A program made the position numbers and the translations under genes. The notes beneath the pieces were generated by a model, which searched no databases, was not told the origin of the DNA, and saw only the letters and a program-made list of their open reading frames with translations. DNA of 64,000 bases from positions 64,001 through 128,000 of IMG/VR virus record IMGVR_UViG_3300032893_000004. One strand, given 5' to 3'. This stretch comes from a virus. Shown piece after piece: positions 5,393 through 37,271 of the stretch. How positions within the stretch are numbered: position 1 is the first letter of the stretch; the number at the start of each line of letters is the position of its first letter.

Positions 5393-5722
5393 TTAAACCA
5401 AAACTAATCTGGAACCAGGCAACAATTTAATTAGTGCTCCTGGGTTGAGTGTTAATCCGGGAGCGATACCAACTTCGCCAGCTGCAAGAGATATAGTTCC
5501 GTTGACGACTGACTGAGTCACAAATAACTGTCCATGGATGTCGCCCGCTGGCTGAACTGATGCCAGACTATTCTGGATTGTCGTCCCAGTCGTATCCGCC
5601 CAAGTCGCGATGTTGTTCACGACGGTCGGCGGTATACCGATCACATTCCCGGTAGGATTCAACACTCGCGTAACGAGCTGAAGCGTTCCGGTAAAAGGAT
5701 TGACGACGACCTGATATGACAT
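5393..5722 (-). CDS. Small tail-associated structural protein (hypothetical)
   Basis: 109 aa, translationally coupled to the upstream gene (TAATG), lies in the fibre operon. Confidence 0.55.
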   Translation of the reverse strand: MSYQVVVNPFTGTLQLVTRVLNPTGNVIGIPPTVVNNIATWADTTGTTIQNSLASVQPAGDIHGQLFVTQSVVNGTISLAAGEVGIAPGLTLNPGALIKLLPGSRLVLV

Positions 5723-6426
5723 TATGGCTCCGTATACTGAACATTTGTCAGGTTCGCTCCCACATCATAAGTCAACACCAGCCGCGCTACTTCCGTTCCT
5801 GTTGGACCGCCAACCAGATACTGAATAAGCGTCGGTACCACAAATCCTGCTATCGTACTGTTCGTGAGCTTGATGTCGTCGAATTCGACTTTCACGAGCG
5901 ATGCGATGTCGACCGTGTTGATCGAACCGTTCGAGTTGACGGTCATCGTATTGCCGCCCTGAACGACAGACACGTTCCCGATCTCTACCGTGCCATCGAA
6001 TGCTACTGGAAGAGGATTCTCAGCGTCGTAATATGCTCCGTACTTGTTTACGAGCACGTTGCGAAGGGCTGTGGACGGTTCGTTGTCATAGACTGCTCGT
6101 AGCACGATATCGTAGCCGATCTTATTGCGAACATCCTCGGAAGCGGTGAGGGTACCGCCGTTGAACTGGGTCGGATTCTGGAGCGACTGATCCTGACCGG
6201 CTCCGACGGGCGTCTCGTACCACGGGACGACCTGAATCTGCGTGTTGGACAGCACACGCTGGATCGTATAATTGGTAGTGGTCTGGCCGATAGCAGACAG
6301 AGCGATTTTTTGCTTAGGATGGAGTCCTGCGGTATCTGAGACGGTGATGATATAATTGGCAACGGAGATGCCTGTGAGAATAACACCAGGCCAACGCTGC
6401 TCGAATATCGTCGGTAAATACGCCAT
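5722..6426 (-). CDS. Virion structural protein (hypothetical)
   Basis: Likely start is MAYLPTIF at 6426 with a GAGG RBS. The track's extension to 6669 crosses a promoter and a structured RNA on the other strand. Confidence 0.6.
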   Translation of the reverse strand: MAYLPTIFEQRWPGVILTGISVANYIITVSDTAGLHPKQKIALSAIGQTTTNYTIQRVLSNTQIQVVPWYETPVGAGQDQSLQNPTQFNGGTLTASEDVRNKIGYDIVLRAVYDNEPSTALRNVLVNKYGAYYDAENPLPVAFDGTVEIGNVSVVQGGNTMTVNSNGSINTVDIASLVKVEFDDIKLTNSTIAGFVVPTLIQYLVGGPTGTEVARLVLTYDVGANLTNVQYTEP

Positions 6427-6536
6427 CGTAAACCTCAGTTCTTCCGAACTGTTGCGACCCGTGTCGCCATCGAAACCATTCTCGACATTCTCAAGGTTAG
6501 GATAAAATCCCGTACTGAGACGACTTTTTGAATTAT

Positions 6537-6565
6537 TTGACCGACGAGATGGACTATGGGATACT
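6537..6565 (+). promoter_or_regulatory. Sigma-70-type promoter
   Basis: TTGACC (6537-6542), 17-nt spacer, GATACT (6560-6565) with an extended -10 TG. Predicted start ~6571-6572. Confidence 0.6.
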
Positions 6566-6570
6566 ATCTT

Positions 6571-6668
6571 TGGCGGGTATGCCAGAATCAATGGCGGTTC
6601 CGATGATCCCCCTCCTCGGAACCAGTCCAGCGTAACAGCTGATCGTGGGTTGGACCCACTACCCGCCA
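6571..6668 (+). ncRNA. tRNA-like cloverleaf RNA (non-canonical) with an anti-SD-like loop
   Basis: Stems: TGGCGGGTA/TACCCGCCA closing stem ending in CCA; GCCA/TGGC; GGTTCCGA/TCGGAACC with loop TGATCCCCCTCC; CAGC/GCTG; GTGGG/CCCAC. Confidence 0.6.
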
Positions 6669-6689
6669 CTTTATTTCACCGGAGGCTTT

Positions 6690-7091
6690 GTGAGCGATAA
6701 CCACCTGTTTACAGCCAAGAAGTTCGATCCCCCGCCTGAGAACTACGACGAAGTACTCGATCGGGTGGTCGTCATCGATGCTTTGCCTGGCGGAATAGGT
6801 CAGGAAGATCAGAAGCTTACGACTCCGATCGAATCGATGCACTTCAAGCGAGTCGAAGTGAAGGAACAGGAAAAGGCTGCCGATGTTCCCGTCCGTATGG
6901 TTACGGCCGAAGAGGCCAAGCGCCTGATCTCGTCAGGAGAATTCCACAAGAGCATGATCCCTCGCAAGCTACGCTGCCGCGACTGCGGCGTCGAACTGCC
7001 GCCGGAGCGAGGCTTACTGTGCAAGGAATGTCTACCGTCTCTCCACGACGACCCAGGCCACTATCTGTACTGCGGTGTGTCCGGTGAGTAA
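6690..7091 (+). CDS. Hypothetical protein with C-terminal Zn ribbon
   Basis: GTG at 6690 after GGAGG; CRDC...CKEC motif. Confidence 0.6.
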   Translation: MSDNHLFTAKKFDPPPENYDEVLDRVVVIDALPGGIGQEDQKLTTPIESMHFKRVEVKEQEKAADVPVRMVTAEEAKRLISSGEFHKSMIPRKLRCRDCGVELPPERGLLCKECLPSLHDDPGHYLYCGVSGE

Positions 7092-7314: not shown

Positions 7315-7540
7315 GATTCGATACAAGCTCACGGTCATGGCACACTGCAAGAAGACGTACAATCACCCGAAAGCGTATCCAGACACGCAGAACATGATGC
7401 TTCGCCAATCGAAGAACATTGACTCGCACGTAATCTGCATGATAGATGGCGATCAGCGTTTGAATAAACAGGCGCAAAAGATAAAGGACGAGCTTGGACT
7501 GGCTGGCTGGCTGTGCATGGTGAGGGCATTCCGTGGATGA
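7283..7540 (+). CDS. Hypothetical protein
   Basis: Small ORF coupled to its neighbours; start uncertain. Confidence 0.45.
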   Translation: MTQHRSMILAEIRYKLTVMAHCKKTYNHPKAYPDTQNMMLRQSKNIDSHVICMIDGDQRLNKQAQKIKDELGLAGWLCMVRAFRG

Positions 7541-8144
7541 TCTGAAAGTCATATTCGTCGGATGCAACCCTTCGCCGAACAACACGACAGACGAACCTTT
7601 CGTCGGATCAAAATCAGGCAAGACGCTCAGCTTGTGGCTCTCTGAGATGGATTTGGTTTCGTCCCAGTGCGGATACGTCAATCTTACCGACAAAGTGACG
7701 AAAAAGGCATCAGATCTCAAGAAGAAAGACGTGAACATCCAGGAGTTCTGGCTAAACCTACTGATGAAAGCTCTCACGATGCGGGTAGGACAGCCGGATG
7801 CGACCAAGTGCATGATCGCGAAGATGCAGCAACGGGGGCAGCTCGCAGAGGCTTTCGGCGATCTGGATGAAAAAGAACTCGATCATTACCTATCGATGCT
7901 TAAAGGGCTAGAAATGCCCGCCATCGTCACTCTAGGAAAGATGGCGGCCTGGGGCGTCGCCCAAACCGGTATACCGTACTTCGAACTACCGCACCCGTCC
8001 GGCCTGAATCGCAAGACGAACGACAAAGAAGCACTCAAGATAGCACTTGCGGACTGTAAAGCTTGGCTGTATAGTACACCGGAAGAGTCGACTAAAGGAG
8101 ACGAAGATGGTGAGGCTGAAAGCGATCAAGATCCGGAAGAGTGA
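7533..8144 (+). CDS. Uracil-DNA glycosylase superfamily protein
   Basis: VIFVGCNPS (motif A), IVTLGKMA and LPHPSGLNR (motif B). Confidence 0.7.
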   Translation: MDDLKVIFVGCNPSPNNTTDEPFVGSKSGKTLSLWLSEMDLVSSQCGYVNLTDKVTKKASDLKKKDVNIQEFWLNLLMKALTMRVGQPDATKCMIAKMQQRGQLAEAFGDLDEKELDHYLSMLKGLEMPAIVTLGKMAAWGVAQTGIPYFELPHPSGLNRKTNDKEALKIALADCKAWLYSTPEESTKGDEDGEAESDQDPEE

Positions 8145-8550: not shown

Positions 8551-8883
8551 ATGAAGATGCCAGAACGGGTCCGCCTGGCGGTGGACCTAATCAGCCTCCT
8601 GAAGGAAGCTGATGGCGCTGCTCCGCGCCGGGTCGAGGATATGGCTCCGCTGCTCGGCAACAGTCCGAACTTCCTTCATCAGATCGTTTCCACTCTGAAC
8701 AAAGCTGGGATCGTCAAGGTAATTCGCGGACCGAAAGGCGGTGTCTTACCGAACATGGCAAGCTACTCCGTCCTGGACGTCTATCAGGCGTTCGGGTACA
8801 TGAAAGAGCCGGTCGTCGGGAAGACAGCCAGCTCAGACATCGAAAAAGAATTAAGAGAATTGTTGCGCGACTATTGGCTTTAG
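8551..8883 (+). CDS. Rrf2-family winged-helix transcription regulator (no Fe-S cysteines)
   Basis: SPNFLHQIVSTLNKAGIVKVIRGPKGG matches the Rrf2 signature; followed by SVLDVYQA. Confidence 0.75.
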   Translation: MKMPERVRLAVDLISLLKEADGAAPRRVEDMAPLLGNSPNFLHQIVSTLNKAGIVKVIRGPKGGVLPNMASYSVLDVYQAFGYMKEPVVGKTASSDIEKELRELLRDYWL

Positions 8884-17734: not shown

Positions 17735-18747
17735 TCTTCATCCTCCGACAGCGGATCCGGTCTCTTAGGTGGCTGCGGTTTCTTGGCTGGCTCGTCTCCC
17801 TGCATCTGCCATCCTTGAGCTTCCGCGTATTTCAAGTACGCTGCAGGTGTCTTTGGGCCGTTCAAAACATACGTGTCGACCTTGAAACCCTGCAGCTTCG
17901 GGGCCGCGTACTTGATGAAGTTTGCTTCCACCTGCCCCGTGAACGTCATCATGCAAGAGTATACCATCTCCGTACCGTTGAAGTGCGGGTTGATGTCGAT
18001 GGAACCGACGTTGAATGTAGACAGGGCCACGCCGCGCCGTTCGATGTAAGCTTCCTTGTAACGCAGAAATATGTACTGGATCAGTTGTCGCATCCAGATA
18101 GCTTGGTTCATGTCCGACTCGGTGTGCATTCCGATCGCGAACGTCTCCTCAAGCCACGTTCTTTCCTTCGACAGATTCCAGAGCGCTGTCGGCGGAGCGA
18201 TGTATGCCTGAGTAAAATCGTCGACCGTTCCTTCCGCGATCGTGAACGTCGACTGGCCGGAAACCGTATTGATGACGTACGCCTTTCCTGACACTTTGGA
18301 TACTAGAAACTGACCGACGAACATCCTGCTGGTCGTAAGGTTCGACGGTAACGTTAAGGTACCGGTCGACGGATCGTACGCAACGGCAGTGAACGGTCCG
18401 TACATCTGCTGAGGCAGAGCTGTTATGTTATGAGGTACGATCTCGGAATCGTCAAGACCATCGCCCAGCTCGTCTCGCTCGGTCATCTCTCTGGAGGATA
18501 GCCTCACGACCGATATGCACGGAAAACGCGGCGTATCCACGCGATTAGTGAGGTACACGTCGATGTTGTTGCCTAGGAACCACTCCTTAGCGCGCATGAC
18601 TTCTTTCCACCCGTAATCCATCTTGGCAAGCGGGTCGAGCGCTAGATCGGCATAGATATCATCCAAGATCCAGTTATTCTTCCGCAGATCAGCGAGAGCG
18701 CCTTCGATCATCGTTTTAAGCAGAATGTCTGTTGCCTGTACGCCCAT
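17731..18747 (-). CDS. Probable tail terminator/completion protein
   Basis: TPRFPCISV motif and position in the neck-to-sheath gene order. Confidence 0.5.
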   Translation of the reverse strand: MGVQATDILLKTMIEGALADLRKNNWILDDIYADLALDPLAKMDYGWKEVMRAKEWFLGNNIDVYLTNRVDTPRFPCISVVRLSSREMTERDELGDGLDDSEIVPHNITALPQQMYGPFTAVAYDPSTGTLTLPSNLTTSRMFVGQFLVSKVSGKAYVINTVSGQSTFTIAEGTVDDFTQAYIAPPTALWNLSKERTWLEETFAIGMHTESDMNQAIWMRQLIQYIFLRYKEAYIERRGVALSTFNVGSIDINPHFNGTEMVYSCMMTFTGQVEANFIKYAAPKLQGFKVDTYVLNGPKTPAAYLKYAEAQGWQMQGDEPAKKPQPPKRPDPLSEDEE

Positions 18748-37242: not shown

Positions 37243-37271
37243 TTGACTGCTTTGGTGGACTATCGGATAAT
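37243..37271 (+). promoter_or_regulatory. Sigma-70-type promoter, divergent
   Basis: TTGACT, 17-nt spacer, GATAAT, then GGAGG and ATG 37289. Confidence 0.6.

What the first reader, a model, noticed from the sequence alone, without database searches (positions are those of the whole stretch)
6537..6692. Promoter-driven tRNA-shaped RNA displaying a 16S anti-Shine-Dalgarno mimic
Seen: a sigma-70 promoter (TTGACC-17-GATACT) would start transcription at ~6571, the first base of a 98-nt five-stem cloverleaf. It has a 9-bp closing stem ending in CCA, a D-like arm, an 8-bp central arm, a variable arm and a T-like arm. It is not a canonical tRNA: the T loop is TTGGA and the central loop is 12 nt. That loop reads TGATCCCCCTCC(T), close to the 16S rRNA 3' tail GATCACCTCCT. 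The first gene's RBS (GGAGG, 6681-6685) lies 12 nt past the structure. Inference, three options: a cis switch whose loop occludes that RBS; a trans-acting decoy that pairs with SD sequences on mRNAs; or a tRNA mimic that titrates anticodon nucleases or tRNA-sensing defences.
Basis: partly seen in the sequence, partly recalled or inferred. Interest (0 to 1): 0.8.

Follow-up and report, generated by a model that had tools for sequence, protein, structure and literature searches.

The report
Non-decoding tRNA-shaped RNA in phage leader
A 98-base RNA shaped like a transfer RNA, kept by selection but unable to read codons, sits directly behind a phage promoter and in front of a small operon in an uncultured Myxococcus-phage-Mx1-like virus; its claimed mimicry of the ribosome's anti-Shine-Dalgarno tail does not hold up in the one full-length relative.

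Summary
The structure is real. Window 6571-6669 (+) folds into a five-stem cloverleaf (-51.4 kcal/mol, z -5.9). The only full-length relative differs at 15 of 99 bases, and none of the nine changes in paired positions breaks a pair: three are double compensatory changes and two G.U pairs mark the + strand. About 3 in 10,000 random substitution sets do as well. The promoter is also credible, as one of three copies of a phage promoter type.

It is not a tRNA. ARAGORN and Rfam (tRNA, tRNA-Sec, all families) miss it. The central arm is 10-11 bp with a UCCCCC hexaloop, the T loop has 5 nt, and the D loop lacks GG. The terminal CCA is base-paired and absent from the relative.

The anti-Shine-Dalgarno reading is not supported. 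The relative has CCUCA instead of CCUCC, and that change lengthens the hairpin while the RBS stays GGAGG.

The family is tiny: this phage, one relative seen in two samples, and one truncated copy. Mx1 carries a large tRNA array in the matching genome slot.

My best reading (about 0.35) is a tRNA-derived, non-decoding module in the 5' leader or intercistronic region. It would be processed or would stabilise the transcript, like plant-mitochondrial t-elements. A trans-acting decoy remains possible.

Earlier unchecked scan notes describe analogous tRNA-shaped modules in other phages' early leaders.

The parts
6537..6565 (+). Promoter TTGACC-17-GATACT with the spacer motif TGGACTAT. It belongs to a three-copy phage promoter type, TTGACy-N7-TGGACTAT-NN-GAWAMT.
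   Evidence: One search finds the site. One search finds paralogues at genome 33510 and 101257 (window 37243), both followed within about 20 nt by an SD and ATG. The relative L003 has the same motif.
6571..6669 (+). The whole tRNA-shaped RNA, about 98 nt. The predicted transcription start coincides with its first base.
   Evidence: Searches give the fold. Searches give the covariation. In L046 a differently built promoter (TTGACT-17-CAGAAT) also ends 5-7 nt before the element.
6572..6579 (+). 5' strand of the 8-bp closing (acceptor-like) stem. It pairs with 6660-6667. U6571-A6668 adds a 9th pair in this phage only.
   Evidence: The pair A9-U90 becomes G-C in L003.
6581..6595 (+). D-like arm: a 4-bp stem with the 7-nt loop GAAUCAA. 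It has no G18G19. C19 is kept in all three copies.
   Evidence: L046 loop GAUGCAA.
6596..6623 (+). Central arm: 8 bp, then a U.C mismatch, then 2 bp, capped by the hexaloop UCCCCC (6607-6612).
   Evidence: There are two double compensatory changes, two changes to G.U, and C45->A that creates U34-A45 in L003. CCCCC is one of only 11 such runs in the 155-kb genome.
6628..6641 (+). Variable-arm-like hairpin: 4 bp with the loop GUAACA.
   Evidence: The stem is invariant and one loop base changes.
6645..6659 (+). T-like arm: a 5-bp stem GUGGG/CCCAC with the 5-nt loop UUGGA (AUGAA in the relative). It abuts the closing stem, giving an 8/5 stack of 13 bp.
   Evidence: U55, R57 and A58 equivalents are kept, position 56 is G, and positions 59-60 are missing.
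6660..6667 (+). 3' strand of the closing stem.
6670..6676 (+). U-rich tract (UUUAUUU here, UUUCUUUU in L003) directly after the closing stem.
   Evidence: The terminator scan does not call it, because the 'hairpin' is multibranched.
6681..6685 (+). Shine-Dalgarno GGAGG of the first gene of the operon.
   Evidence: It is unchanged in L003.
6690..7091 (+). geneY, 133 aa, with a C-terminal CxxC...CxxC motif and unknown function. It is always the gene directly 3' of the element.
   Evidence: 63% identical homologue in L003. No Pfam match. 13 relatives. The AF2 model is unusable.

Best explanation
The element is a tRNA-derived RNA module that no longer decodes. It is transcribed as the first 98 nt of an operon mRNA; in the relative it is an intercistronic spacer.

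Shown: the fold is maintained by selection on the + strand. It lies 5-7 nt behind a genuine phage promoter and 8-13 nt ahead of geneY's RBS, so it is co-transcribed with geneY.

Inferred: its tRNA-like upper half acts as a built-in processing and stability module. This half is the 8-bp acceptor-like stem stacked on a 5-bp T-like stem, with U at -1.
- When it is internal, as in the relative, host tRNA-end enzymes (RNase P on the 5' side, RNase Z or E in the U-rich 3' flank) would cut it out. That would separate the cistrons.
- When it is at +1, as in this phage, the fully paired 5' end would protect the transcript.
- Either way a stable RNA of about 98 nt could accumulate.

The job of the C-rich hexaloop is unknown.
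For: - Structure: MFE cloverleaf, z -5.9. RNAalifold independently gives the same fold.
- Selection: 15 differences from L003. Nine lie in paired columns and none breaks a pair, with three double compensatory changes. In simulation, 3.5e-4 of random sets of 15 substitutions lose no pair.
- Strand: G26.U53 and U29.G50 in L003 would be mismatches on the other strand.
- Promoter: three copies of the same promoter type occur in the genome, and the other two lead straight to an SD and ATG.
- The start of the element tracks the -10 element in two different promoter layouts.
- In L003 a 107-aa gene lies between the same promoter and the element, yet the element still abuts geneY.
- There is no room for a separate geneY promoter.
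- Mx1, the nearest cultured relative (tail sheath 39% identical), fills the matching slot between the sheath/tube genes and the tailspike with more than 20 tRNA genes. This phage has no canonical tRNA.
- The T stem GUGGG/CCCAC is identical to that of one Mx1 tRNA-Leu.
- Precedent for tRNA-like cutting signals beside mRNAs: plant mitochondrial t-elements (PMC1920247).
Against: - No transcript ends or cleavage have been measured.
- Only two full-length sequences exist, so three of the five stems show no variation.
- The T loop has 5 nt and the D loop lacks GG, so recognition of the elbow by RNase P is uncertain.
- A simple 5' hairpin would be enough for stabilisation. That leaves the four-hairpin design and the conserved C5 loop unexplained in a genome that otherwise purges C5 runs.
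- The stem followed by a U tract could instead be a terminator or attenuator.
- Sequence identity of the element (85%) is no higher than that of the neighbouring non-coding DNA (83%).
Confidence: 0.35

Rival explanations
1. A stand-alone small RNA that acts in trans. It would start at the promoter's +1 and end at the U tract after the closing stem. It could be a tRNA-shaped decoy for a host tRNA-binding or tRNA-cutting factor, or a C-rich-loop RNA that pairs with G-rich targets or binds a poly(C)- or 16S-tail-binding protein.
For: - The transcription start coincides with the first base of the closing stem in two promoter layouts.
- A U-rich tract directly follows the GC-rich closing stem in both full-length copies.
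- The UGAUCCCCCUC stretch is invariant, and CCCCC is the second most depleted 5-mer of the genome.
- A second tRNA-shaped RNA with the same kind of 5-nt T loop lies beside the phage tmRNA, which suggests a repertoire of tRNA mimics.
- Non-translating irregular tRNAs are described in soil bacteria (PMC5389517).
Against: - geneY has no other promoter, so termination cannot be complete.
- In L003 the element is internal to an operon.
- No complementary site lies at any phage RBS.
- CCUCC is not conserved.
- The phage's own genes depend on an SD.
- The phage has no TROVE/Ro60 protein and no CCA-adding enzyme as a partner.
Confidence: 0.28
2. A cis-acting riboregulator of the operon. It would be either an attenuator whose closing stem plus U tract terminates transcription unless a ligand or protein remodels the junction, or a processive antitermination RNA like HK022 put or EAR.
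For: - It lies directly after an early-type promoter and before the first gene.
- A GC-rich closing stem is followed by UUUCUUUU or UUUAUUU.
- The junction nucleotides U10, AGUC and AUC are unchanged.
Against: - No alternative (anti-terminator) pairing is evident in folds of the full leader.
- The multibranched 'hairpin' is atypical for an intrinsic terminator, and the scan does not call it.
- Two sequences cannot show junction conservation beyond background.
- There is no Rfam riboswitch or leader match.
Confidence: 0.17
3. One reading: the central loop CCUCC pairs with GGAGG of geneY, or with SD sequences in general, to control translation.
For: In the window the loop region reads GAUCCCCCUCC(U). 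That resembles the 16S tail GAUCACCUCCU, and 5 bp with GGAGG are possible.
Against: - L003 has CCUCA with an unchanged GGAGG. The change is compensatory within the hairpin instead.
- U43 and C44 are paired in the MFE and consensus folds.
- Leader folds leave the SD free of the element.
- The phage's genes are themselves SD-led.
Confidence: 0.08
4. A working but highly unusual tRNA (aminoacylated and used in translation), or alternatively a decaying tRNA pseudogene.
For: - The 8/5 acceptor/T stack of 13 bp and the long variable arm recall bacterial tRNA-Sec.
- Mx1 carries a tRNA array at the syntenic position.
Against: - No 7-nt anticodon loop is possible, because the loop can only be 12, 10, 8 or 6 nt.
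- The discriminator differs between copies (A versus U), and there is no CCA in the relative.
- RF00005 and RF01852 give nothing here.
- A pseudogene is contradicted by the compensatory changes.
Confidence: 0.05

Closest known systems
Plant mitochondrial t-elements (tRNA-like processing signals next to mRNAs; PMC1920247)
   Same: Both are non-decoding tRNA-shaped structures embedded in mRNA precursors directly beside coding regions. Both have an acceptor/T-like upper half that could be read by RNase P or RNase Z.
   Different: This one is in a bacteriophage rather than an organelle. It keeps all four hairpins, including a very long central arm. Cleavage is untested here. In this phage it sits at the primary 5' end, so 5' cleavage would not be needed.
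Bacterial tRNA-Sec and allo-tRNAs, including non-translating 'irregular tRNAs' of soil bacteria (Mukai et al., PMC5389517)
   Same: All share a long acceptor stem (8 bp), a long variable arm, a lengthened anticodon-side stem and five-stem junctions. Some allo-tRNAs are thought to be regulatory rather than translational.
   Different: Allo-tRNAs keep a 12-bp acceptor/T branch (8/4 or 9/3), a 7-nt anticodon loop and a normal T loop. This RNA has 8/5, a 6-nt (at most 12-nt) loop and a 5-nt T loop, and RF01852 does not detect it.
Canonical phage tRNA genes, such as the array of more than 20 tRNAs in Myxococcus phage Mx1 (OR576727.2)
   Same: Same genomic slot, between the tail sheath/tube genes and the tail-fibre/tailspike genes. 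The T stem is identical to that of one Mx1 tRNA-Leu.
   Different: Opposite strand relative to the sheath gene. No overall sequence similarity. No GGUUCGA T loop and no anticodon loop.
C-rich-loop base-pairing sRNAs of Firmicutes (RsaE/RoxS, RNAIII UCCC loops; from my own knowledge)
   Same: A C-run displayed in a hairpin loop.
   Different: Those RNAs target SD regions by extended pairing and are not tRNA-shaped. No candidate target site at an RBS exists in this phage.
5'-terminal stabiliser stem-loops (ompA leader) and T7 early-mRNA RNase III sites (from my own knowledge)
   Same: A structured element placed between an early promoter and the first gene, with the 5' end fully base-paired.
   Different: Those are single hairpins, not a five-way junction.

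Membership tests
Canonical tRNA (Rfam RF00005) | Detected by tRNA covariance or heuristic models | tested here: not met
   ARAGORN gives nothing on the window or the whole genome, including intron and low-score modes. RF00005 gives no match at the locus at E<=10.
Canonical tRNA (Rfam RF00005) | 5-bp anticodon stem with a 7-nt loop | tested here: not met
   The stem is 8-11 bp and the loop is 12 or 6 nt. An odd loop length is impossible without asymmetry.
Canonical tRNA (Rfam RF00005) | 7-nt T loop (UUCRANN) and D-loop G18G19 | tested here: not met
   The T loop is UUGGA or AUGAA (5 nt). The D loop is GAAUCAA, GAAUCUA or GAUGCAA, without GG.
Canonical tRNA (Rfam RF00005) | Unpaired discriminator plus CCA, or a conserved discriminator | tested here: not met
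   CCA is paired in the window and absent in L003 (CCUU). The discriminator position is A versus U.
tRNA-Sec / allo-tRNA | Extended acceptor stem with a 13-bp (8/5) or 12-bp (8/4, 9/3) acceptor/T branch and a long variable arm | tested here: met
   The conserved closing stem is 8 bp and the T-like stem is 5 bp. The variable hairpin has 4 bp and a 6-nt loop.
tRNA-Sec / allo-tRNA | 7-nt anticodon loop and a match to RF01852 | tested here: not met
   RF01852 gives no match at the locus. Loop length is as described above.
tmRNA / Y RNA-like YrlA | Rfam model match; for YrlA, a Ro60/TROVE partner | tested here: not met
   No Rfam match to the element. TROVE PF05731 is absent from the phage. The genuine tmRNA lies elsewhere.
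t-element-like processing signal | Non-decoding tRNA-like fold directly beside a coding region on the same transcript | tested here: met
   It is 8-13 nt upstream of geneY's SD in both copies. In L003 it lies between two genes.
t-element-like processing signal | Cleavage by RNase P and/or RNase Z at its borders | not testable with these tools
   This needs in vitro cleavage or transcript-end mapping.
Intrinsic terminator / attenuator | GC-rich hairpin immediately followed by a U tract | tested here: inconclusive
   The closing stem plus UUUAUUU or UUUCUUUU is present. But the stem closes a four-hairpin junction and the scan does not call it.
Anti-SD / SD-sequestering element | Conserved CCUCC available for pairing, or covarying with the RBS | tested here: not met
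   L003 has CCUCA with an unchanged GGAGG. U43 and C44 are paired.

The most novel reading that the evidence does not exclude
The RNA is released as a stable, non-decoding tRNA mimic that works in trans. One option is a decoy that soaks up a host tRNA-directed or 16S-3'-tail-directed factor, such as a defence nuclease or a toxin that cleaves the anti-SD. The other is a C-loop RNA that reprogrammes host translation. It would then be part of a small repertoire of tRNA mimics with 5-nt T loops. In this phage lineage that repertoire would have replaced the ordinary tRNA array seen in Mx1.
Probability: 0.15. Interest if true: 0.8.

Novelty: new variant of a known kind. Interest (0 to 1): 0.45.

Why it matters
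Phages are known to carry tRNAs and tmRNAs. Selected, non-decoding tRNA-shaped modules wired into early-gene leaders are barely described in print and are absent from Rfam. If this module is a processing or stability device, it would show that phages reuse the host's tRNA-maturation machinery to shape their mRNAs, as plant mitochondria do. If it acts in trans, it would add an RNA decoy to the phage counter-defence toolkit. The practical value here is modest, because the family has only two to three members in uncultured phages.

Tried and rejected
- Known families: a canonical, intron-containing or low-score tRNA and any Rfam family are rejected.
- Paralogues: model R1 finds no second copy in the genome.
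- More homologues:
  - Model R1 found nothing in 39 loci around distant homologues of the neighbouring gene, in ten whole related virus records or in Mx1.
  - Three DNA-pattern scans of IMG/VR returned only the known relative. The first used a mis-spaced pattern, which was my error.
  - The two new CM hits among pattern-seeded loci (L051, L054) lie inside coding sequence.
  - The GTDB pattern scan gave only weak seeded hits.
  - Protein-guided scans with the neighbouring gene and with geneY found no further carriers.
The Logan/ENA contigs of P0003, P0004 and P0017-P0029 therefore could not be read.
- Partner proteins: no TROVE and no CCA-adding enzyme.
- geneY function: no Pfam or PHROG assignment, atlas scores below 0.8, and an AF2 model at pLDDT 42.
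- Similarity to Mx1 tRNAs: none beyond the T stem.
- Resemblance of GGUUCCGA in the central stem to the Y-RNA Ro-binding GGUCCGA (the Y-RNA motif is recalled from memory, not tested here): rejected, because the stem covaries in L003.
- The second GATCCCCCNCC at 6724-6734 inside geneY: it encodes Pro codons and is not conserved in L003, so it is a coincidence.

Full report
**Setting**

The window is bases 64001-128000 of a 155-kb IMG/VR virus record judged 96% complete.

The finding lies in a divergent intergenic region.
- The minus-strand tail-fibre operon starts at ATG 6426. Its N-terminus, MAYLPT, is conserved in homologues.
- A plus-strand operon starts at GTG 6690 behind GGAGG 6681-6685.
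- The long minus-strand ORF and the plus-strand ORF that overlap the element (5722..6669 and 6645..7091) are artefacts of upstream alternative starts.

Yes, mostly.
- The promoter-like site TTGACC-17-GATACT is there.
- Bases 6571-6669 fold, as both MFE and centroid, into a closing stem plus four hairpins at -51.4 kcal/mol. Shuffles average -30.7 (z -5.9).
- ARAGORN finds no tRNA here under any setting and none in the whole phage.
- Rfam gives no match to the element at gathering scores or at E<=10. RF00005 and RF01852, searched over the whole genome, hit only the tRNA-like end of the phage's tmRNA.

**Relatives and selection**

A homologue of the neighbouring gene led to one related phage, seen in two samples (L002/L003; 67% amino-acid identity). 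It carries the element on the same relative strand.

The two copies differ at 15 of 99 positions.
- Nine differences lie in paired columns and none breaks a pair.
- A9-U90 becomes G-C, U28-A51 becomes C-G, and C30-G49 becomes G-C.
- G26-C53 becomes G.U and U29-A50 becomes U.G.
- The U34.C45 mismatch becomes U-A.

In 200,000 simulated sets of 15 random substitutions, 3.5e-4 lost no pair. Only 2.5e-5 reached the fully paired state seen in L003. The tool's own two-row shuffle test has little power here (59/500). Sliding the partners by 1-3 columns drops pairing from 98% to 28-58%.

The two G.U pairs would be C.A mismatches on the other strand, so the + strand is the functional one.

A third relative (L046) is cut by the contig end after 25 nt. 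It shows the D-like arm with a changed loop and a changed 5' stem strand.

Nothing else was found in IMG/VR, JGI metagenomes, GTDB genomes, ten related whole virus records or Mx1. The family is therefore real but tiny, and the D, V and T stems rest on thermodynamics alone.

**Anatomy, corrected**

- The conserved closing stem has 8 bp (6572-6579 with 6660-6667). The ninth pair and the 'CCA' exist only in this phage and are base-paired. The relative reads CCUU there.
- The T-like stem (5 bp) abuts the closing stem. This gives an 8/5 stack of 13 bp, as in bacterial tRNA-Sec, together with a long variable-arm hairpin.
- The T loop has only 5 nt (UUGGA or AUGAA). U55, R57 and A58 equivalents are present, position 56 is G, and positions 59-60 are missing.
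- The D loop has no GG. Its C19 is kept in all three copies and could pair with G56. That is a swapped version of the tRNA elbow pair, and it is inference only.
- The central arm is not 8 bp with a 12-nt loop. G35-C44 and A36-U43 are in the MFE and the consensus folds. The relative's C45->A adds U34-A45, giving 11 bp and a UCCCCC hexaloop.
- No 7-nt anticodon loop can be drawn.

**The anti-SD idea**

The one difference in the loop region falls on the CCUCC core (CCUCA in L003), while the RBS stays GGAGG. Possible loop-RBS pairing drops from 5 to 4 bp, and the change is compensatory inside the hairpin.

Other points against it:
- Folds of the whole leader leave the SD outside the element.
- The phage's own genes are SD-led: 43 GGAGG sites precede ORFs of 60 aa or more.
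- No site complementary to the hexaloop lies at a phage RBS.

What remains notable is the invariant UGAUCCCCCUC. CCCCC and GGGGG are the two most depleted 5-mers in this genome, with 11 and 10 copies against about 200 expected. The C-run therefore looks deliberately kept.

**Transcription context**

The promoter is one of three copies of the type TTGACy-N7-TGGACTAT-NN-GAWAMT (genome 33510, 70551, 101257). The relative has the same motif. The other two copies run straight into an SD and ATG within about 20 nt.

- In this phage the -10 element ends 5 nt before the closing stem.
- In L046 a differently built promoter (TTGACT-17-CAGAAT) again ends 5-7 nt before the element.
- In L003 a 107-aa gene sits between promoter and element, but the element still lies 8 nt before geneY's SD.

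The RNA is therefore always on geneY's transcript, either at its very 5' end or as an intercistronic spacer. A U-rich tract follows the closing stem in both full-length copies.

**Evolutionary context**

In Mx1 the slot between the sheath/tube genes and the tailspike holds more than 20 canonical tRNA genes, an RNA ligase, a peptidyl-tRNA hydrolase and a TROVE/Ro60 protein.

This phage has no canonical tRNA, no TROVE protein and no CCA-adding enzyme. It does have:
- a bona fide tmRNA (128.5 bits);
- next to the tmRNA, another tRNA-shaped RNA that also has a 5-bp T stem with a 5-nt loop.

The element's T stem equals that of one Mx1 tRNA-Leu, but there is no wider similarity. A tRNA origin is plausible but unproven.

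**Mechanism**

My best reading (about 0.35) is a tRNA-derived, non-decoding module serving the operon transcript.
- Its acceptor/T-like half, with U at -1, would let RNase P and RNase Z/E excise it when it is internal.
- Its fully paired 5' end would stabilise the transcript when it is at +1.
- This is the logic of plant-mitochondrial t-elements (PMC1920247).

Rivals:
- a released trans-acting mimic or decoy, or a C-loop RNA (0.28);
- an attenuator or antitermination riboregulator (0.17);
- the SD switch or SD decoy (0.08);
- a working odd tRNA or a tRNA pseudogene (0.05).

Non-translating irregular tRNAs with five-stem junctions are on record for soil bacteria (PMC5389517). Earlier unchecked notes of this scan describe tRNA-shaped, non-decoding modules in early leaders of other phages. 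I could not test homology to them.

**Verdict**

This is a genuine, selected, uncatalogued tRNA-shaped RNA. The headline claim of an anti-SD mimic is not supported. The function is open, and interest is moderate because the family is very small and every mechanistic step is inferred.

Noticed in passing
whole genome (G000); C5 runs inside the window at 6608-6612, 6729, 8291, 12232, 60093, 61091 and 61716: G/C homopolymer runs are strongly purged. There are 11 CCCCC and 10 GGGGG against about 200 expected from base composition, making them the two rarest 5-mers. CCCC/GGGG stand at about 0.16 of expectation and CCC/GGG at about 0.38. The cause is unknown.
   Followed up: partly
G000:C1:18619-19048, minus strand (outside the window; L048:820-1249): The phage encodes a bona fide tmRNA (Rfam RF00023, 128.5 bits; ARAGORN tag DNEYEFQAAA) with a canonical T arm. 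A distant relative (L035:1656-2064) also has a tmRNA near the homologous tail gene.
   Followed up: partly
G000:C1 about 18260-18395, minus strand (L048:465-595): A second tRNA-shaped RNA lies beside the tmRNA. It has a 7-bp acceptor stem and U8A9, but a large insert in the D region and, like the element studied here, a 5-bp T stem with a 5-nt loop. The shared collapsed T loop may be a lineage trait.
   Followed up: partly
window 6537-6565 and 37243-37271; genome 33495-33525: Three copies of the promoter type TTGACy-N7-TGGACTAT-NN-GAWAMT, all on the + strand. The conserved spacer motif suggests recognition by more than sigma-70 alone.
   Followed up: partly
window 6454-6467 and about 6503-6512: In the leader and promoter region of the minus-strand tail-fibre operon there is a small hairpin (GCGAC-CCGT-GTCGC). 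Its stem covaries in distant relatives (GCCUC/GAGGC in L010, GUCUC/GAGAC in L011). There is also a conserved AGATTAGG motif, which is a candidate late-promoter or leader element.
   Followed up: no
L003:2541-2860, minus strand of the locus: The relative has an extra gene of about 107 aa inserted exactly between the conserved promoter and the tRNA-shaped element. The window and L046 lack it.
   Followed up: partly
Mx1 OR576727.2:42200-64600 (L176, L177): In Mx1 the syntenic accessory slot holds more than 20 tRNA genes. It also holds an RNA ligase, a peptidyl-tRNA hydrolase, a VWA protein and a TROVE/Ro60-like protein. This hints at a Y-RNA/Ro system in a myxophage.
   Followed up: no
window 7533-8144 and 8551-8883: The operon behind the element encodes a UDG-superfamily protein (PF03167, 5.7e-10) and a short Rrf2-type winged-helix regulator (PF02082, 3.4e-12).
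   Followed up: no
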